Assembly: GCA_050178385.1 (NCBI GenBank)
Contig: JBFXGD010000015.1
Span: 1 to 39,145, forward strand
Source: Calditrichaceae bacterium
Lineage (GTDB): Bacteria > Calditrichota > Calditrichia > Calditrichales > JBFXGD01
Direction: 5' to 3'
DNA: 39,145 nucleotides
Below the pieces are notes generated by a model. The model made no database searches. It was not told the origin of the DNA and saw only the letters and a program-made list of their open reading frames with translations. Position numbers and translations under genes: made by a program. Every line of letters starts with the position of its first letter. The first letter of the stretch is position 1. This document shows positions 1 through 30,100 of this stretch, piece after piece.

Positions 1-50
1 ATGGCCGCTGCGAAAACGAAAGTTACGATTATTGCTGCAATCTTTTTCAT
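1..50 (-). CDS. Small secreted-peptide gene, paralog 2 (5' part only; runs off the left edge): MKKIAAIIVTFVFAAA...
   Basis: ATG at 50-48 preceded by AAGGAGTTATCAC, identical to the RBS region of the 105..260 gene. The translated N-terminus is clearly paralogous (MKKIAAIIVTFVFAAA vs MKKLASLIVAMVFAAA). Not in the ORF track. Confidence 0.8.
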   Translation of the reverse strand, partial: MKKIAAIIVTFVFAAA

Positions 51-273
51 GTGATAACTCCTTAATGCAATGTTTTTTGTGATTCTTTCAATTAACCGCT
101 TTGATTACGGTTTTGGGCGCGGGGGCGGAGGTAATGGAACAATAGTAGCGAATTCAGCGCCGGATCTTGGGCTTCCGTTTGTTGATGCGACGTCCACGGC
201 AGTAAAGACGATTGCCGCCGCGAATACCATTGCGACAATGAGGGAGGCTAACTTTTTCATGTGATAACTCCTT
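42..273. repeat. Exact 22-bp direct repeat CTTTTTCATGTGATAACTCCTT at 42-63 and 252-273 (period 210 bp), covering RBS and first codons of the two peptide genes
   Basis: Read directly from the sequence. Confidence 0.95.
105..260 (-). CDS. 51-aa secreted peptide precursor with Pro-rich C-terminus: MKKLASLIVAMVFAAAIVFTAVDVASTNGSPRSGAEFATIVPLPPPPRPKP
   Basis: Manual translation ATG(260)..TAA(105). Strong SD AAGGAG 7 nt upstream in an A/C-rich unstructured leader; classic Sec signal peptide (MKK + hydrophobic core); tandem paralog 210 bp downstream. Below the ORF-track length cutoff. Confidence 0.85.
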   Translation of the reverse strand: MKKLASLIVAMVFAAAIVFTAVDVASTNGSPRSGAEFATIVPLPPPPRPKP

Positions 274-370
274 GTGTGGTTGTGTGATATGTATTTATGC
301 GAAGAAAAGTACTTCCGTTAACAGGCGGCTGATAAAGGGACGTTGATAAATAGAAATGACAGGTCATTGA

Positions 371-609
371 TCAGATCTTCCTTACAGCAGTTCTGTAATT
401 TAAAGATCCATCTAAAATTGTAAGGCTTCCGTGCGGGGAACAGGTTTAATTGAATAAATTACCTGTTACTTGAATCGTCGCTGATTATTATCAGATTTTC
501 CTTACAGCGATTCTGCAATTAAAAGATCCTTCTAAAAATTTGTGCTTCCTTGCGGGGAACAGAATTAATGCAACAATTTACCTGTTGCTTAATTCATCTT
601 TGATTATTA
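371..609. repeat. Tandem imperfect direct repeat, two units (371-490, 491-609), about 80% identical, with conserved hairpins on the minus strand
   Basis: Manual alignment gives 96/120 identities. Shared blocks include TCAGAT.TTCCTTACAGC, CTTCC.TGCGGGGAACAG, TTACCTGTT and TGATTATTA. Confidence 0.92.
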
Positions 610-796
610 AATGAGTTGGGCTGACCGGAATAATACTGCAAATCCAAGTCCTGTTGTCATGAAATTCTGTGTGTGAGTAATTTTCCGGAAAATGGGACTG
701 AAGCATATGGCGGATTTCAGAAATGCAGGAGAATGTCTGAACGATCAGAAAGAAAAGTGATGTGGCGAATATAATGGGTTTCAGCAGTTCCCGCAT
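578..796 (-). CDS. 72-aa small protein with N-terminal signal/hydrophobic segment (possible lipobox TFSC); possible diverged member of the peptide cluster
   Basis: ORF track; GGAG upstream of the ATG (CCGGAGACAGGG-ATG); hydrophobic N-terminus; SIIPVSP resembles TIVPLPP of the 51-aa peptide; 3' end runs into repeat unit 2. Confidence 0.5.
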   Translation of the reverse strand: MRELLKPIIFATSLFFLIVQTFSCISEIRHMLQSHFPENYSHTEFHDNRTWICSIIPVSPTHLIIKDELSNR

Positions 797-850
797 CCCT
801 GTCTCCGGATGATTATCGAGAACCGTCCATGGATTAATTTGACTTCCTTG
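794..850 (-). promoter_or_regulatory. Three CsrA/RsmA-type CANGGANG motifs in the leader (843-850 CAAGGAAG, 824-831 CATGGACG, 794-801 CAGGGATG overlapping the start codon)
   Basis: Exact matches to the CANGGANG core on the minus strand; function is inferred. Confidence 0.5.
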
Positions 851-902
851 ATGAGCTCAGTTTGGCAGAAAAAACGGCAGATCTACGTAACTGATTTATA
901 AG

Positions 903-930
903 AATATAATTAATGTATGTGAAAATGCAA
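903..930 (-). promoter_or_regulatory. Putative sigma70-type promoter for the peptide cluster (TTGCAT-16 nt-TATATT)
   Basis: Same TTGnnn-16/17-TAnnnT pattern as found upstream of rpmE and lepA in this window; the AT-rich context lowers specificity. Confidence 0.45.
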
Positions 931-1050
931 TATATTTTAATATTATGTTTGACATTTTAAGCACAACTTTATGCGTATTAAATTCATTTATTGTTAGGCA
1001 CCTCAGGTAAAATATTGGTATAAATTTATTATTTTGTTAAATTTATACCG

Positions 1051-1572
1051 TTGAAAGGTTACTATCAGAAAATGGATCGATATGTGAAAAACAATGAGAA
1101 TATATACGTCAATCGGGTTTTTATAACAGGTTTTACGCTATTGACAATCTGGTTGCTCATGTTGTCTTTTGCACCGTTATTGATGGCCAGCGGTTTTCCT
1201 CCGGCAGGGTATGCGGCAACGATGATATATTTCTTAACCGACCCTGTTTGTCATCAACTGCCGGCAAGAAGTCTCTATATTTCAGGATTACCCATGCCTG
1301 TGTGCGCGCGTTGCTATTTTATCTATCTGGGGGGATGGATGGTGTTTCTGATTCCCGTATTTAGAAGGAAAATCAATTTTTGGAGTCATAGAATTTATTT
1401 GATCATGGGATTACTAATTTTAACGGAATTTGTTGTTGAAAAAACCGGTCTTTACCAAAACCCGACCGAGATAAGGATGATAGCTGGATTCTTACTGGGA
1501 ATACTGATATTCAGACTTATTATTGAAGCATTGTATTGGAATGAACAAAGAGGAACAGAGAAAAATGGATAA
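1051..1572 (+). CDS. DUF2085-family membrane protein (true start probably downstream of the TTG at 1051)
   Basis: Motifs CHQLPARS and MPVCARC..IYLG with several transmembrane segments. Confidence 0.8.
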   Translation: MKGYYQKMDRYVKNNENIYVNRVFITGFTLLTIWLLMLSFAPLLMASGFPPAGYAATMIYFLTDPVCHQLPARSLYISGLPMPVCARCYFIYLGGWMVFLIPVFRRKINFWSHRIYLIMGLLILTEFVVEKTGLYQNPTEIRMIAGFLLGILIFRLIIEALYWNEQRGTEKNG

Positions 1573-2059
1573 CAGGATTTTGTACCAGGGGGCAATTCTT
1601 GGCGGAACCGTAGCGGCTTTGACGGATGCCATGCCGTTGATAAATATGATAAATTGTCTTTGTTGTTTGGGGATTATATCCGGCGGAGTAGTGGCGGTTC
1701 TGTTTTATCGTAAAACGGCGGAACCTGAATACAGGGATCTGAATACGCCTTCCACCATACAGCTCGGGTTGATGGCAGGATTATTCGGGGCATTTATATC
1801 CTTTGGTCTGCAATATATCGTTTTTAAAATAATGGGGAACTGGCAGATAGAATTGCTGACAAATATGTTTGAAAATATGGATGACTTACCGGCTTTATGG
1901 GAAAATCTTTATCAAGAAATCCAGAAGGAAGAATACCAGGGGTTTGCGGGAATGGCTATATTAATCCGGTCGCTGATTATATTTCCTGTGTTTTCTCTGA
2001 TTGGCGCTCTGATCACAAAGCGTTTTATTGAAAGGAAATACAAGCCATCGGATAGCTAA
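1565..2059 (+). CDS. Conserved membrane protein with Cys-rich NCLCC motif (DUF4199-like), ~164 aa
   Basis: ATG at 1565 overlaps the upstream stop, suggesting coupling (track start 1523 is a TTG); about 4 TM helices with GxxxG motifs. Confidence 0.65.
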   Translation: MDNRILYQGAILGGTVAALTDAMPLINMINCLCCLGIISGGVVAVLFYRKTAEPEYRDLNTPSTIQLGLMAGLFGAFISFGLQYIVFKIMGNWQIELLTNMFENMDDLPALWENLYQEIQKEEYQGFAGMAILIRSLIIFPVFSLIGALITKRFIERKYKPSDS

Positions 2060-2067
2060 GATGGTTT

Positions 2068-3144
2068 CTATTTTTCTGCCGCCACCGCTTCGAGACGTTC
2101 AGAATGATAGGCGAGTCTTAATCCCTCCATCAGCTCGTAGATCTCACCCTCCATTACCCGGTCCAGTTTGTATAAAGTTAAGCCGATGCGATGGTCAGTG
2201 ACGCGGCCCTGAGGAAAATTGTAAGTTCTTATTTTAGCGCTTCTGTCACCGGAGCCAACCATTGATTTTCTCTGCGCGGCAATGGTACTGTTTTGCTCGG
2301 AAATGGCCTGATCCAGCAAGCGGCTGCGCAGCACTTTCAAAGCTTTCGTTTTGTTCTTTAGCTGAGATTTCTCATCCTGACAGGAAACTACAATTCCCGT
2401 GGGAATATGAGTGATACGTACGGCTGAATCGGTAGTATTGACGCTTTGACCGCCCGGTCCGCTTGACCTGAAAACATCAATTCTCAGTTCATTCGGATCG
2501 ATTTCAATGTCAACCTCCTCCGCCTCGGGCAAAACGACAACCGAAACCGCTGATGTATGAACCCGACCCTGAGTTTCGGTATCCGGAACACGCTGCACGC
2601 GATGCACGCCGCTTTCAAACTTGAGTGTACCATATGTGCTGTCGCCATCAATCGAGAAAATAATTTCTTTAAATCCGCCTCTTTCCGAAGGATTAGAATT
2701 CAGGATTTCAATTTTCAGGTTATTGGCTTCACAAAATTTAGTGTACATGCGGTAAAGATCCCCGGCGAATATAGCGGCTTCATCACCTCCCGTGCCTGCT
2801 CTGATTTCCATAATGGCATTTTTATGGTCATCCGGGTCCTTGGGTATCAGCAGCAACTTTAATTTTTCTTCGAACAGCTCAATCTGCCCCGACAATTCTT
2901 CCAGCTCCGCCTCCGCAAGCTCAATGAGTTCCGGGTCGTTTTCATCAGAAATTATACTCTGGTTGCCTTCATAATTGTTGAGAGCAATCAAGTATGGTTC
3001 TCCGAAATCAAGAATTTTTGAAAGTTCTCGATGTTCTCTCGCCAGATCTTTGTACCGCTTTTGATCATTATGGACATCAGGGTCAGAAAGCTGAATATTA
3101 AGTTTCTCGAATTTTTCTTTAATTTTAAGAATTTTATCTTTCAT
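2068..3144 (-). CDS. prfA: Peptide chain release factor 1
   Basis: [23 protein letters not shown] (PxT RF1 motif), [17 protein letters not shown] (GGQ), [15 protein letters not shown]. Confidence 0.98.
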
Positions 3145-5936: not shown

Positions 5937-7226
5937 TTAAGTCAAATTGAATTTATTTAAATATGGTCCTATTAAATAATGACTTCCGGCAACAAGCAGA
6001 ATATCATCTGCCTGTTGTTGTTTTTTTGAGAATTCGAACGCTTTGTGCAAATCTTTAATAAAATATGCGTTTTGATGGTTTTGTTTGAACAAATTGAATA
6101 GTGTGTCGCCATCCAATTTTCTGTCAGTTTCGGGTTCCGTTACAACTATCAGCCTCGCCTTCCCGGAAAGGTACTTTACGATATCCTCAAATTGTTTGTC
6201 CCGGACCAGTCCGAGCAAAAGCAGAAATTTTTCCGGAGCGACAAAATCCATTATAAAATCTATCGTCCTTTTGATCCCGTCCCTGTTATGGCTCACGTCA
6301 AAAATGATGCGGGGTTGCTTTTGCATGACTTGCAGCCTGCCTTCCCAGATGGATGACGCCAAAGAATCCCTGAATATTTTTTCTGAAAAATTAATGTTTC
6401 TTGAACTGAGAAAATTTCTGCTAACAAGATAAGCCAGGGCAATGTTGTTCAACTGAAAATTTCCAACCTGCCGGGTGTTTAAATTCCCAAACCTCTCCTG
6501 ATTTAATTTATCGCTTAAATCAAAAGTTGTGCCGTCCAGTGAAATATCTTTGATTTCACAGGTTACATGGTTTTTCAGCGCGAAAAATTTGTTTGATGGT
6601 TTTAGTCTCTCTTCTATATAATGAAATGTTTCATCATGTTGTTCCCCGGAAAATACAAATGCCTTGTCTTTAATAATTCCGGTTTTTTCAAAAACGATTT
6701 CTTTGAGTGTGTTGCCCAATTGTTTCTCATGATCGAAATCTATAGGGGTTAGAACAGCTATTTCAGAATTAACAAGATTGGTTGAATCAAGCCGGCCACC
6801 AAGTCCGGTCTCGATAACGGCCACATCCACCTGTTTGAACCTGAAATACTCAAACGCCAGGGCGGTAGTGGTGTCAAAGAATGTCGCCTGTCTTTTTAAT
6901 ACAAGTTCCTTAGTTTTGTCCCAAAAATCAATAATAAATTTTTTCTCTATTTTGATTCCATTGATCCTGATTCTCTCTCTGAAATCCACTAAATGGGGGC
7001 TGGTGAATAATCCGACTTTTAAGCCCATCGCCTGTAAAAAAGATGCGGTAAAATAGGATGTTGATCCTTTCCCGTTTGTTCCGGCAATGTGAATCACGGG
7101 ATAATCAAGATGTGGATTGGATAAAAAATCGCAAATGGCTTTTATATTCTCCAATCCTAGTTTGATCGCAAATTTTTGCAGATCATATAATTCTTCAATT
7201 GTAGTCGAATAAGGAGTTTTGTTCAC
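5937..7226 (-). CDS. folC: Folylpolyglutamate/dihydrofolate synthase
   Basis: IHIAGTNGKGS, FTSPHL, ETGLGGRLDSTN, DHEKQLG, DVSHN, GSHYLIG. Confidence 0.96.
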   Translation of the reverse strand: MNKTPYSTTIEELYDLQKFAIKLGLENIKAICDFLSNPHLDYPVIHIAGTNGKGSTSYFTASFLQAMGLKVGLFTSPHLVDFRERIRINGIKIEKKFIIDFWDKTKELVLKRQATFFDTTTALAFEYFRFKQVDVAVIETGLGGRLDSTNLVNSEIAVLTPIDFDHEKQLGNTLKEIVFEKTGIIKDKAFVFSGEQHDETFHYIEERLKPSNKFFALKNHVTCEIKDISLDGTTFDLSDKLNQERFGNLNTRQVGNFQLNNIALAYLVSRNFLSSRNINFSEKIFRDSLASSIWEGRLQVMQKQPRIIFDVSHNRDGIKRTIDFIMDFVAPEKFLLLLGLVRDKQFEDIVKYLSGKARLIVVTEPETDRKLDGDTLFNLFKQNHQNAYFIKDLHKAFEFSKKQQQADDILLVAGSHYLIGPYLNKFNLT

Positions 7227-28369: not shown

Positions 28370-30100
28370 ATGACCAAAAAAGAAGTTGTTGCCATACTGG
28401 AAGAAATAGGGACGATTCTCGATCTAAAAGGTGAGAATCCGTTTAAATCACGGGCATATTTCACCGCGGCGAGAGCTATTGAAACCCAGGTCGATGATAT
28501 TACCGAAATGGTAAAGAGTGGTGAAATATCGGATGTCAGGGGAATAGGCAAAGCTATATCGGAAAAGCTGACGATCTTAATTGAAACAGGACGGCTTCCA
28601 TATTATGATGATTTAAAAAACAGTATACCCGCGGGATTACTTGATATGCTCGAGATACCCGGTATGGGCCCGAAGAAAGTAAAAGCGGTGTATGAAAAAC
28701 TGCATGTTACAAGTATCGGTGAGCTGGAATATGCCTGCGCCGAAAATCGCCTGCGTGACCTGGAAGGATTCGGTCAAAAAAGTCAGGATAAAATTTTTGA
28801 GGGCATTCAGCTACGGAAAAAATACAGGGAAAGATTTCATTTTCATATCGCGATGATGGAGGCGGAAACCATCGGGGAATATCTAAAAAAGAATTCAATG
28901 ATCAATCGAATGGAGTTTGCCGGTAGCCTGCGCCGTAAAAAAGAGACGATAAAAGATATTGATTTTGTTGCTTCATGCCTGGATAAAGACCGTAAATCCA
29001 TCATGGATTACTTTGTGAATTATCCCGAAAAAGTGACCGTGACGGGTCACGGTGAAACAAAGTCGGCAATGGTGCTTAGCAGTGGGATGGTTTGTGAACT
29101 GCGGTTAGTCTCGGATGATCAGTATCCCTTCCTGTTGCATCATTCCACGGGAAGCAAAGAACACAATACCTCTTTGAGACAGCGCGCCAAAAAAATGAAT
29201 ATGACAATGAACGAATACGGTCTCTTTAACATTGGAAGTAATGAAAGTATTGTCTGCGGCGATGAAGAAGCCATCTTCAACAATTTAAAGTTAAATTTTA
29301 TACCGCCAGAACTCAGAGAAAACAATGGCGAGATTGAATCCGCTGAACAGGGAGAAATCCCGGACCTTGTGAGTCCGGATCAGCTCCGGGGAATATTTCA
29401 TGTTCATACAACTCACAGCGACGGCGCCGCATCCATCAGTGAAATGGCGGATGCATGTAAAAAGCTGGGAATGGATTATATCGGGATTACCGATCACAGT
29501 AAATCCGCCTTTTACGCGAATGGTTTGACGGAAGACAGAGTAAAGAAGCAACACGATGAAATCGATGCCATCAACGACAAGCTGAAAGATTTTACCATTT
29601 TTAAAGGAATTGAAGCCGATATTCTTCCTGACGGAAATATGGACTTTGATGACGATGTTCTCGCCTCTTTTGATTTTGTTATCGCCTCGGTACATTCAAG
29701 TTTTAATATGAGTGAAGAGGATATGACCGGGCGAATCTGCCGGGCGCTTGAAAATCCATATGTTACAATGCTGGGTCATCCCACCGGAAGACTGCTGCTT
29801 GGCCGCGAAGCTTATCCGGTGGATATGAAGAGAGTTATTGAAACGGCGGCAAAATTTGGCAAAATAATTGAAATAAACGCGAATCCGTATCGTCTTGATC
29901 TTGACTGGCGCTGGGGGCGTTTCGCGAACGAGCTTGGAGTGAAAACATCCATAAATCCCGACGCGCATGCCGTTGAAGGCTTAAAAGATATCGGGATAGG
30001 CGCCGGAATCGCCAGAAAAGGGTGGTTTAAACCCCGGTCAGTATTCAATACGTACCCGGTTGAAAAGATTAAAAGCGAATTGATAGGAATGCGGGGATAA
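28370..30100 (+). CDS. polX: DNA polymerase X / PHP 3'-5' exonuclease
   Basis: GENPFKSRAY, HhH motifs (GIGK, PGMGPKK), AGSLRR.KETIKDID, TGSKEHN; PHP motifs HVHTTHSDG, ITDHS, GHPTGR, EINA, NPDAH. Confidence 0.95.
   Translation: MTKKEVVAILEEIGTILDLKGENPFKSRAYFTAARAIETQVDDITEMVKSGEISDVRGIGKAISEKLTILIETGRLPYYDDLKNSIPAGLLDMLEIPGMGPKKVKAVYEKLHVTSIGELEYACAENRLRDLEGFGQKSQDKIFEGIQLRKKYRERFHFHIAMMEAETIGEYLKKNSMINRMEFAGSLRRKKETIKDIDFVASCLDKDRKSIMDYFVNYPEKVTVTGHGETKSAMVLSSGMVCELRLVSDDQYPFLLHHSTGSKEHNTSLRQRAKKMNMTMNEYGLFNIGSNESIVCGDEEAIFNNLKLNFIPPELRENNGEIESAEQGEIPDLVSPDQLRGIFHVHTTHSDGAASISEMADACKKLGMDYIGITDHSKSAFYANGLTEDRVKKQHDEIDAINDKLKDFTIFKGIEADILPDGNMDFDDDVLASFDFVIASVHSSFNMSEEDMTGRICRALENPYVTMLGHPTGRLLLGREAYPVDMKRVIETAAKFGKIIEINANPYRLDLDWRWGRFANELGVKTSINPDAHAVEGLKDIGIGAGIARKGWFKPRSVFNTYPVEKIKSELIGMRG

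What the first reader, a model, noticed from the sequence alone, without database searches (positions are those of the whole stretch)
1..273. Unannotated tandem array of small secreted peptide precursors with a Pro-rich C-terminal tail
Seen in sequence: a complete 51-aa minus-strand ORF (105..260) has a Sec signal, a short linker and the tail EFATIVPLPPPPRPKP. After 54 nt with no terminator, a paralog starts at 50. The two share an exact 22-bp RBS/start block, while their signal peptides have diverged with conservative substitutions, which suggests selection at protein level. Established knowledge: signal peptide + spacer + short C-terminal mature peptide is the layout of RRNPP-type signalling propeptides (Phr, PapR, AimP). 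Inference: this may be an undescribed peptide-signalling or peptide-effector cassette in a Gram-negative FCB-type lineage, with more copies and a receptor (TPR regulator or sensor kinase) or protease left of the window.
Basis: partly seen in the sequence, partly recalled or inferred. Interest (0 to 1): 0.8.

Follow-up and report, generated by a model that had tools for sequence, protein, structure and literature searches.

The report
Tandem genes for proline-rich miniproteins
Two neighbouring tiny genes encode 51-residue, export-tagged proteins with a conserved proline-rich tail; they belong to an undescribed family seen only in Calditrichota bacteria, their job is unknown, and the nearby receptor that a signalling cassette would need is not there.

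Summary
Window 105-260(-) is a 51-aa ORF. A paralog starts at 50(-) behind an identical 22-nt Shine-Dalgarno/start block and a 54-nt spacer. Its full 51-aa form lies on contig C27, which overlaps the window start. The genes are translated and constrained: copy 2 against its same-genus ortholog shows 22 synonymous and 0 non-synonymous changes.

They belong to a family found in 17 of 86 Calditrichota genomes, usually as arrays of 1-4 copies. No Pfam or NCBIfam model matches. The layout is MKK, about 19 hydrophobic residues, a variable polar linker, a core [YF]A[ST]I[IV]P[IL]PPP.PP, and a basic end.

The RRNPP-style cassette is not supported. Left of the window lie a terminator, then ssb, cdd, udk, tdk, a nucleoside transporter and SppA. 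This housekeeping block also exists without the peptide genes. A kinase lies nearby in only 1 of 11 annotated genomes.

My best reading (about 0.45): Sec-inserted miniproteins display a polyproline motif on the periplasmic side for an unlinked envelope partner, and copy number sets the dose. Whether the N-terminus is cleaved is unresolved. It is a new small-protein family of unknown function and moderate interest.

The parts
105..260 (-). Gene 1 of the array, 51 aa including the stop codon at 107-105. Product: MKKLASLIVAMVFAAAIVFTAVDVASTNGSPRSGAEFATIVPLPPPPRPKP.
   Evidence: The family profile scores E 1.1e-23. Against the G001 ortholog there are 12 synonymous and 3 non-synonymous differences.
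252..273 (-). A 22-nt block holding the Shine-Dalgarno AAGGAG (273-268), a 7-nt spacer and the first three codons of gene 1.
   Evidence: The exact pattern is found 3 times in the genome, only at these genes.
51..104 (-). A 54-nt spacer between gene 1 and gene 2. It holds the second copy of the SD block (63-51) and no terminator.
   Evidence: Spacers of 52-54 nt also occur in G001 and G002.
1..50 (-). The first 50 nt of gene 2 (MKKIAAIIVTFVFAAA...), cut by the contig end. The rest lies at G000:C27:28981-29133(-) and also gives 51 aa.
   Evidence: Against the G001 ortholog there are 22 synonymous and 0 non-synonymous differences.
274..369 (-). The 5' flank of the array. It contains a -10-like TCGCATAAATAC at 302-291, seen by eye, with similar words upstream of the arrays of G007, G013 and G002. 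I infer a promoter; none has been shown.
   Evidence: by eye only. The consensus promoter scan of 1-1200 was at chance level: 6 found against 4.1 +/- 2.3 expected.
370..609 (-). Two tandem 119-120-nt units upstream of the array, function unknown. The first unit overlaps the 3' end of the 72-aa ORF. It is not known whether they belong to the peptide unit.
   Evidence: TRF gives 2.0 copies at 80% match, and 3.0 copies in G001. The units are unique to this locus in G000. They were found in 2 of 41 related genomes. There is no Rfam match.
578..796 (-). A 72-aa ORF with a hydrophobic N-terminus, conserved in G001. It is possibly a further small exported protein of the locus.
   Evidence: pN is 0.119 against pS 0.415 versus G001. 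No Pfam family matches.

Best explanation
The two genes encode members of an undescribed family of 51-66-aa miniproteins, seen so far only in class Calditrichia.

Transcription and translation. Each gene has its own strong Shine-Dalgarno. The array is probably its own transcription unit, because in most genomes it ends at a GC-rich hairpin with a T-run just before ssb.

The product. It has MKK, then about 19 uncharged hydrophobic residues. This should send it to the Sec or YidC pathway with the N-terminus in the cytoplasm and the C-terminus outside.

What is exposed. On the periplasmic side this places a variable Ser/Thr/Asn-rich linker of 10-17 residues. After it comes the conserved short motif [YF]-A-[ST]-I-[IV]-P-[IL]-P-P-P-x-P-P with a basic end.

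Proposed mechanism. I propose that this tail, which is hydrophobic and then polyproline, is a short linear ligand for a conserved envelope partner encoded elsewhere. The hydrophobic segment stays as a membrane anchor, and tandem copy number (1-4) sets the dose.

Shown: coding, purifying selection, the family and its motif, the array structure, and the genomic context.

Inferred: export, topology, retention of the anchor, the ligand role, and the partner.
For: Coding and constraint.
- Copy 2 against its G001 ortholog: 22 synonymous and 0 non-synonymous changes in 51 codons.
- Copy 1 against its ortholog: 12 synonymous and 3 non-synonymous.
- Between the two copies here, the last 22 codons show 10 synonymous and 0 non-synonymous changes. 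The first 29 codons show pN 0.30 and pS 0.95.

Family.
- 17 of 86 Calditrichota genomes have a match: f1 1/1 plus the window's own genome, f2 9/10, f4 1/1, f6 5/10, f3 0/26, f5 0/17, f7 0/4, f8 0/16.
- 70 proteins were found in the 5.8-billion set.
- 61 representatives were found in the 1.84-billion set; two of these are long proline-rich proteins that match only in part.

Motif, in 132 unique sequences.
- The uncharged stretch after MKK is 18-20 residues in 103 of 132.
- Of the 121 sequences with a recognised core, position 0 is Y in 102 and F in 19.
- Position +1 is A in 104. Position +8 is P in 103 and position +9 is P in 108.

Topology.
- Mean net charge is +1.9 for residues 1-3 and about 0 for the 15 residues after the hydrophobic stretch.
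- By the positive-inside rule (established knowledge, recalled) this favours N-in, C-out.

Anchor retained.
- The hydrophobic half is as constrained between orthologs as the tail: 0 non-synonymous against 12 synonymous in codons 1-29 of copy 2.
- F13 is at least 90% conserved across the family.
- No small-x-small cleavage site keeps one position across the family (by eye).

Own unit.
- SD AAGGAG sits 7 nt before each ATG.
- A hairpin with a T-run lies between the last copy and ssb in 9 of the 10 loci inspected.

Dose.
- Copy number varies from 1 to 4, with near-identical later copies in G001 and G002.
- An extra-copy variant is seen in public contigs.
Against: - No partner is identified.
- The only conserved neighbours are housekeeping genes, and the same block exists without the peptides in f3.
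- The divergent DUF2085/DUF4199 pair does not co-vary with the family: it is present in f3 (20/26 and 19/26) and not found in f2 (0/10), the reverse of the peptide pattern.
- An uncharged stretch of 18-20 residues after MKK is also what a cleaved signal peptide (h plus c region) looks like (recalled knowledge). Plausible sites such as VAS|T (copy 1) and STA|T (copy 2) exist. Cleavage is therefore not excluded.
- No signal-peptide or topology predictor was available.
- No RNA run holds the locus, so there is no direct expression evidence.
- Related genomes are not independent, so the counts overstate the support.
Confidence: 0.45

Rival explanations
1. A cleaved, secreted propeptide. The N-terminus is an ordinary Sec signal. 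The C-terminal 20-26 residues, possibly trimmed further, are released as a diffusible signal sensed by a receptor encoded elsewhere. Alternatively they act as a secreted effector, for example one resembling animal proline-rich antimicrobial peptides.
For: - The layout matches secreted propeptides: a signal-like N-terminus, a variable linker and a conserved C-terminal part.
- Plausible small-x-small sites lie near residues 25-26 of both copies (by eye).
- The two paralogs would give nearly the same mature peptide, which fits duplication for dose.
- Phr_nterm matches 7 of 14 members weakly, best E 8.7e-4.
- One genome, G048, has a hybrid histidine kinase directly upstream and a TPR-kinase about 2 kb away.
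Against: - No receptor or regulator is adjacent in 10 of 11 annotated genomes.
- All Phr and NprX matches are below the curated cut-offs and cover only residues 1-20.
- The core is conserved across families instead of varying as pherotypes do.
- The hydrophobic half is under strong purifying selection.
- Mean net charge from the core to the end is only +1.1. This is far below the strongly cationic animal proline-rich peptides (recalled).
- No immunity or export genes lie nearby.
Confidence: 0.2
2. A membrane-active small peptide of the type I toxin or pore kind. The hydrophobic helix is the active part, and expression is held down by an antisense RNA.
For: The products are about 50 aa with one hydrophobic helix and a polar or charged tail, and they occur in tandem copies. 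These are features shared with several type I toxin loci (recalled).
Against: - A strong, unsequestered-looking SD precedes every copy.
- The position in a housekeeping block is conserved across a class.
- A strictly conserved extramembrane polyproline motif is not something a membrane-damaging helix would need.
- No antisense gene was detected, although none could be tested for.
Confidence: 0.06
3. A cis-acting translational element. On this reading, ribosome pausing at the polyproline run (EF-P dependent), or at the terminal Pro-stop in this genus, regulates the downstream ssb-cdd-udk-tdk operon or reports on translation-factor activity. The arrays lie next to prfA or hflX in many genomes.
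For: - A PPP run is nearly invariant.
- The array lies directly upstream of ssb in 9 of 11 annotated genomes and in metagenome locus L047.
- prfA or hflX is a neighbour in 8 of 11.
- In G004 only about 30 nt separate the peptide stop from the ssb start.
Against: - The terminator hairpin lies about 70 nt or more beyond the stop codon, so a ribosome on the ORF cannot mask it.
- Several tandem copies and strong selection on the whole 51-aa sequence, including the hydrophobic half, do not fit a leader peptide.
- The hydrophobic segment is only about 20 residues ahead of the proline run. It would still be inside the exit tunnel at the pause, so a Sec-pulling-force sensor of the SecM/MifM/VemP type does not fit (inference from recalled tunnel length).
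- The Pro-stop ending is specific to this genus.
Confidence: 0.05

Closest known systems
RRNPP-type signalling propeptides (Phr, PapR, NprX, AimP)
   Same: They are small precursors with a signal-like N-terminus, a variable spacer and a conserved or active C-terminal part. NCBIfam Phr_nterm and NprX give weak matches to the N-terminal part.
   Different: - The matches are below cut-off and limited to residues 1-20.
- No adjacent TPR receptor was found.
- The lineage is Calditrichota, which is diderm, not Firmicutes or their phages.
- The core is conserved across families rather than specific to a strain or pherotype.
Small single-pass inner-membrane proteins of enterobacteria (for example MgrB, a 47-aa membrane protein that inhibits the kinase PhoQ; abstract of PMC8404706 seen in the listing)
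   Same: They are about 50 aa with one N-terminal membrane segment and a short extramembrane tail that acts on a larger partner. I think the family here works most like this kind.
   Different: - There is no sequence relation.
- The tail here is a polyproline motif.
- The genes come in tandem arrays and sit in a housekeeping block.
- The partner is unknown.
N-terminal anchor plus proline-rich spacer of TonB/TolA (recalled; only the abstract of PMC12204202 was seen, in the listing)
   Same: Both have an N-in membrane anchor followed by an extended proline-rich stretch with basic residues in the periplasm.
   Different: - There is no C-terminal globular domain.
- The total length is 51-66 aa.
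- No ExbB/ExbD-type genes are adjacent.
- No homology was detected.
Animal proline-rich antimicrobial peptides of the apidaecin/oncocin type (recalled, no call)
   Same: Both have an aromatic residue followed by a hydrophobic residue and a proline-rich run with basic residues near the C-terminus, and both are made as secreted precursors.
   Different: Cationic charge is much lower here, mean +1.1 from the core to the end. There are no Pro-Arg-Pro repeats. The origin is bacterial. No uptake or immunity genes are present. Nothing about this resemblance was tested.
Secretion-monitoring arrest peptides (SecM, MifM, VemP; recalled)
   Same: Both have an N-terminal export segment plus a conserved C-terminal motif that ends in or holds proline.
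   Different: - The arrays are not upstream of a Sec or YidC gene.
- A terminator separates the array from the next gene in 9 of 10 loci.
- There are multiple copies.
- The distance from the hydrophobic segment to the motif is too short for a pulling-force release.

Membership tests
RRNPP propeptides (Phr/PapR/NprX/AimP) | The sequence matches a curated propeptide model (TIGR04429 Phr_nterm, NF033800 NprX) above the cut-off. | tested here: not met
   For Phr_nterm the best E is 8.7e-4; member 1 scores 12 bits against a cut-off of 25, over residues 1-20 only. For NprX the best E is 0.04.
RRNPP propeptides (Phr/PapR/NprX/AimP) | A cognate cytoplasmic TPR receptor gene (Rap, NprR, PlcR, PrgX, AimR) is adjacent. 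| tested here: not met
   In 10 of 11 annotated genomes there is no TPR or kinase gene next to the array. G048 has a hybrid kinase upstream and a TPR-kinase about 2 kb away, but these are membrane-kinase types, not RRNPP regulators.
RRNPP propeptides (Phr/PapR/NprX/AimP) | The precursor is exported by Sec and processed to a short C-terminal peptide that is re-imported by Opp. | not testable with these tools
   No signal-peptide predictor, peptidomics or RNA data were available (one search lists no RNA holder).
Type I toxin-antitoxin toxins | There is an overlapping or adjacent antisense RNA, and translation of the toxin is restrained. | tested here: inconclusive
   No strand-specific RNA is available. 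A strong SD AAGGAG precedes each copy, which argues against restrained translation.
Secretion-monitoring arrest peptides (SecM/MifM/VemP) | The peptide is encoded directly upstream of, and co-transcribed with, a protein-export gene whose translation it controls. | tested here: not met
   The downstream gene is ssb, and a hairpin with a T-run intervenes in 9 of 10 loci.
Proline-rich antimicrobial peptides | The mature peptide is strongly cationic with repeated Pro-Arg-Pro type motifs (feature recalled). | tested here: not met
   Mean net charge from the core to the end is +1.15 in the 121 sequences with a recognised core.
Any Pfam-A or NCBIfam family | The sequence scores above the curated gathering threshold. 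| tested here: not met
   For member 1 there are 0 Pfam families. The best match for any of the 14 members is DUF6520 at E 0.0017, in 2 of 14.
The new family itself (Calditrichia MKK-anchor / polyproline miniproteins) | The sequence has MKK, then about 19 hydrophobic residues, a polar linker, [YF]A[ST]I[IV]P[IL]PPP and a basic end; total length is 51-66 aa. | tested here: met
   Both window copies match the profile: E 1.1e-23 and 1.7e-22.

The most novel reading that the evidence does not exclude
The N-terminal segment is a cleaved Sec signal, and the conserved hydrophobic-polyproline C-terminus of about 20 residues is released from the cell. It would then be one of two things. It could be the first peptide cell-cell signal of an FCB-group diderm, sensed by an unlinked receptor. 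Or it could be a bacterial counterpart of the animal proline-rich antimicrobial peptides that act on the ribosome at the release-factor step. The frequent position next to prfA or hflX would then be more than synteny.
Probability: 0.15. Interest if true: 0.8.

Novelty: new variant of a known kind. Interest (0 to 1): 0.4.

Why it matters
Small exported or membrane proteins are poorly annotated, and Calditrichota are almost unstudied. This family stands out for three reasons:
- It is strongly constrained.
- It is kept in variable-copy arrays at one conserved genomic slot across a class.
- It carries a very clear short motif, a hydrophobic stretch followed by polyproline, that should bind something specific.

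That makes it a tractable entry point to an unknown envelope interaction in this phylum, using a synthetic peptide, pull-downs or fusions. If the tail is released, it would be a new kind of diderm peptide signal or effector. Even so, thousands of lineage-specific small-protein families exist, so without a partner or phenotype the interest stays moderate.

Tried and rejected
Searches that found nothing useful:
- Rfam on window 1-3000 gave no match.
- The ESM Atlas gave best feature scores of 0.79 or less, which is at chance level, and holds no structure.
- Earlier findings of this scan gave nothing by sequence, place or words.
- Three full-text searches of the literature gave nothing on this family. 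From these I used only listing abstracts.

Expression and sequencing runs:
- Five runs are listed and no RNA holder is among them, so nothing can be said about expression.
- Laying the contigs confirmed only that relatives with an extra tandem copy exist.

Homo-oligomer test:
- Four copies were folded with alignment A2. The verdict was 'no answer' (score 0.01, mark 0.42), with the partner's own fold uncertain. This is not evidence either way.

Metagenome context:
- The scan returned only 2 short loci. L047 again shows two peptide genes followed by ssb and cdd. L048 shows two peptide genes beside an unknown 286-aa ORF.

DUF2085/DUF4199 as partners:
- I rejected this because their phyletic pattern is the reverse of the peptide pattern in f2 and f3.

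SppA (S49) as a dedicated protease:
- I rejected this because the ssb...sppA block is ordinary housekeeping synteny, and a nucleoside transporter-tdk-udk-cdd-ssb arrangement (ORF order and sizes; not scanned against Pfam) also occurs in f3 without peptide genes.

A second, competence-type ssb:
- I rejected this because only one ssb was found in the 94%-complete assembly.

The 119-nt units as a dispersed mobile repeat:
- I rejected this because they are unique to this locus.

Rows dropped:
- The ORFs of G005 and G009 listed were not sent to Pfam.
- The neighbours of G011, G017, G019 and G045 were not annotated.

- A profile test of whether the 72-aa ORF is a divergent member of the family was not carried out. 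The resemblance (SIIPVSP against the family core) is seen by eye only.

Full report
WHAT IS THERE

On the minus strand, window 105-260 is a 51-aa ORF with stop TAA at 107-105. Its product is MKKLASLIVAMVFAAAIVFTAVDVASTNGSPRSGAEFATIVPLPPPPRPKP. A Shine-Dalgarno AAGGAG lies at 273-268, 7 nt before the ATG.

After a 54-nt spacer, the same 22-nt SD/start block recurs at 63-42 and a second ORF starts at 50. That exact 22-mer occurs 3 times in the 3.89-Mb assembly, only at these genes. The simple terminator scan finds nothing in 1-273.

The window is the start of contig C15. The reverse complement of contig C27 overlaps it by 213 nt with one mismatch, CCG/CAG in the proline run, probably a strain variant. 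C27 carries the whole of gene 2, which is again 51 aa: MKKIAAIIVTFVFAAAIFMTILSTATTDASPRSGAEFATIVPLPPPPRPKP.

There are at least two copies. The same-genus genome G001 has three. Contigs of two public runs show a relative with an extra tandem copy. A third copy here therefore cannot be excluded.

IS IT CODING?

Yes.
- Copy 2 against its G001 ortholog differs at 22 synonymous and 0 non-synonymous positions in 51 codons.
- Copy 1 against its ortholog differs at 12 synonymous and 3 non-synonymous positions.
- Between the two copies in this genome, the last 22 codons show 10 synonymous and 0 non-synonymous changes. The first 29 codons have diverged (pN 0.30, pS 0.95).
- In G001 the C-terminal halves of copies 1 and 2 are almost identical at the DNA level too (1 synonymous difference). 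Gene conversion therefore also acts there.

THE FAMILY

A profile of the first homologs finds the family in 12 of 39 genomes of the order and in 17 of 86 genomes of the phylum. By family the counts are f1 1/1 plus the window's own genome, f2 9/10, f4 1/1, f6 5/10, f3 0/26, f5 0/17, f7 0/4 and f8 0/16. Related genomes are not independent, and some are incomplete.

The seven loci found in named genomes are all titled Calditrichota, Calditrichia, Calditrichales or Calditrichaceae. The large protein collections hold 70 proteins and 61 representatives at 50% identity, two of which are long proline-rich proteins hit only in part. None has a name other than 'hypothetical protein', and the only taxon named is Calditrichaeota. 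No Pfam or NCBIfam model reaches its cut-off, and the Atlas gives only chance-level look-alikes.

Over 132 unique sequences the layout is:
- MKK;
- an uncharged stretch of 18-20 residues (103 of 132);
- a variable Ser/Thr/Asn-rich linker, mostly 10-17 residues;
- a sharply conserved core, counted in the 121 sequences where it was recognised: Y 102 or F 19, then A 104, S/T/A, I, I/V/P, P 92, I/L/V, P 78, P 103, P 108, P/E, P, P 86;
- a basic end.

In this genus the protein stops at RPKP. In f2 a Lys-rich tail follows (KKKDG...). A large metagenomic subfamily ends in PPARRGC, and 35 of 132 sequences have a C-terminal Cys. F13 within the hydrophobic segment is at least 90% conserved.

Arrays hold 1-4 copies. 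They are often one divergent first copy plus near-identical later ones.

CONTEXT

In this genome the order on the peptide strand is as follows:
- prfA (2068-3144);
- two divergently oriented genes, DUF2085 (1051-1572) and DUF4199 (1523-2059);
- a 72-aa ORF (578-796);
- two 119-120-nt tandem units (370-609);
- the two peptide genes;
- on C27, a GC-rich hairpin with a T-run;
- ssb, cdd, udk, tdk, a nucleoside transporter, SppA (S49), a CDP-alcohol transferase and a nucleoside phosphorylase.

I annotated the neighbours in 11 genomes.
- ssb follows the array directly in 9 of them: the window's own genome, G001, G002, G004, G007, G013, G021, G047 and G049. It also does so in metagenome locus L047.
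- prfA lies upstream within 4 kb in 6 of them.
- In G044 and G048 the array lies next to hflX instead.
- Only G048 has kinases nearby: a hybrid kinase directly upstream and a TPR-kinase about 2 kb away.

A hairpin with a T-run separates the last copy from ssb in 9 of 10 loci inspected. In G004 only about 30 nt separate the two genes.

In f3, locus L045 of G012 shows a nucleoside transporter-tdk-udk-cdd-ssb arrangement (by ORF order and sizes; these ORFs were not scanned against Pfam) opposite the DUF2085/DUF4199 pair (their places). The 670-nt gap holds no peptide gene. The neighbours are therefore ordinary conserved synteny, not a dedicated cassette.

The DUF2085/DUF4199 pair is found in f3 (20/26 and 19/26) and not in f2 (0/10). 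This is the opposite of the peptide's distribution, so it is not an obligate partner. The genome has a single ssb.

HOW IT MOST LIKELY WORKS

What is shown: these are translated, strongly constrained miniproteins with an export-type N-terminus and a conserved polyproline motif. They are encoded in variable-copy arrays with strong ribosome-binding sites.

What is inferred:
- Topology. MKK (mean charge +1.9), followed by a hydrophobic stretch whose far flank is neutral, should insert N-in and C-out by the positive-inside rule (recalled). That puts the linker and motif in the periplasm.
- Cleaved or not. This is open. The hydrophobic half is as constrained between orthologs as the tail. F13 is nearly invariant. 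No cleavage-type site holds one position across the family. All three favour a retained anchor.
- Against that, the total length of the uncharged stretch is also typical of cleaved signals (recalled). Plausible sites exist near residues 25-26 of both copies.

My best reading, with confidence about 0.45, is a membrane-anchored miniprotein. It would present a short ligand, hydrophobic and then polyproline, to an envelope partner encoded elsewhere, and gene copy number would set the dose. In working principle this is closest to small single-pass regulators such as MgrB (abstract of PMC8404706, seen in the listing). In shape it is closest to the anchor-plus-proline-spacer part of TonB/TolA (recalled). 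It is not a member of either.

RIVALS

(a) A cleaved, secreted signal or effector peptide (0.2).
- For: the layout fits, and the two paralogs would give nearly one mature peptide.
- Against: there is no linked receptor, the core is conserved rather than pherotype-like, the N-terminal half is constrained, and net charge is low (+1.15 from the core on).

(b) A type I-toxin-like membrane peptide (0.06).
- Against: the SDs are strong, the slot is conserved class-wide in a housekeeping block, and the extramembrane motif is conserved.

(c) A cis-acting polyproline pause or leader element for ssb, or a translation-factor sensor (0.05).
- For: the adjacency to ssb, prfA and hflX is suggestive.
- Against: the terminator lies well beyond the stop codon, the copies are multiple, the whole sequence is under selection, and the hydrophobic segment is too close to the proline run for a pulling-force mechanism.

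The description is right, and so is the guess of an FCB-type lineage.

The RRNPP analogy fails its defining tests:
- no adjacent TPR receptor;
- model matches below cut-off and confined to the signal-like part;
- the wrong lineage;
- a conserved rather than diversified mature part.

The predicted 'receptor or protease to the left' turns out to be housekeeping genes. SppA is there, but it belongs to a housekeeping block, and a like ssb-to-transporter arrangement stands in f3 without peptide genes.

NOT OBTAINED

- There is no expression evidence, because no RNA run holds the locus.
- No signal-peptide predictor was available.
- The homo-oligomer fold gave no answer.
- The metagenome context scan gave only two short loci.
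- Three literature searches found nothing on this family.
- A profile test of the 72-aa ORF against the family was left out. Its resemblance to the core is by eye only.

VERDICT

This is a real, undescribed small-protein family that I saw only in Calditrichota, of unknown function. It is a new variant of the known kind 'small exported or membrane miniproteins'. Interest is moderate (0.4). It would rise sharply if the tail proved to be a released signal or effector (probability about 0.15).

Noticed in passing
window 370-609 (-), and L009 6301-6661: Two tandem 119-120-nt units (80% alike) lie between the 72-aa ORF and the peptide array. The same-genus genome has three units (92% alike). In both genomes the number of units equals the number of peptide genes (2 and 2, 3 and 3). 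Each unit holds several short inverted repeats. The units are unique to this locus, were found in 2 of 41 related genomes, and have no Rfam match. Their function is unknown; they could be regulator binding sites or a structured RNA.
   Followed up: partly
window 578-796 (-): A 72-aa ORF has a hydrophobic N-terminus and a Cys after it. It is conserved in G001 (pN 0.119, pS 0.415) and has no Pfam family. Its C-terminal part (SIIPVSP) looks by eye like the family core, so it may be a divergent third member. This was not tested. An ORF upstream of the peptides in L048 (987-1247) looks similar.
   Followed up: partly
G000:C27 about 28830-28980 (between gene 2 and ssb); the same place in G001, G002, G007, G013, G005, G009, G021: Just upstream of the hairpin with its T-run before ssb, a T-rich word (TTTGTATTT, then about 15-20 nt, then TAATTTTAA) recurs across genera. 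By eye it looks promoter-like. If it is a promoter, the hairpin would sit at the 5' end of the ssb mRNA rather than only ending the peptide transcript.
   Followed up: no
G000:C27 29182-29295 against window 1-213: The two contigs differ at one base in their 213-nt overlap. The change turns one Pro of the PPPP run into Gln. It is probably a co-assembled strain variant and the cause of the assembly break.
   Followed up: partly
window 1051-2059 (+); L038, L044, L045, L046: The overlapping gene pair DUF2085 and DUF4199 is conserved as a pair across families f1, f3 and f6 of Calditrichia. In f6 it is preceded by an unknown ORF of about 290-300 aa. The pair is not found in f2.
   Followed up: partly
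L013 (G013:C30) about 6135-6500: The array of G013 holds a run of N (masked or unassembled) inside what look like further peptide copies, so its copy number is uncertain.
   Followed up: no
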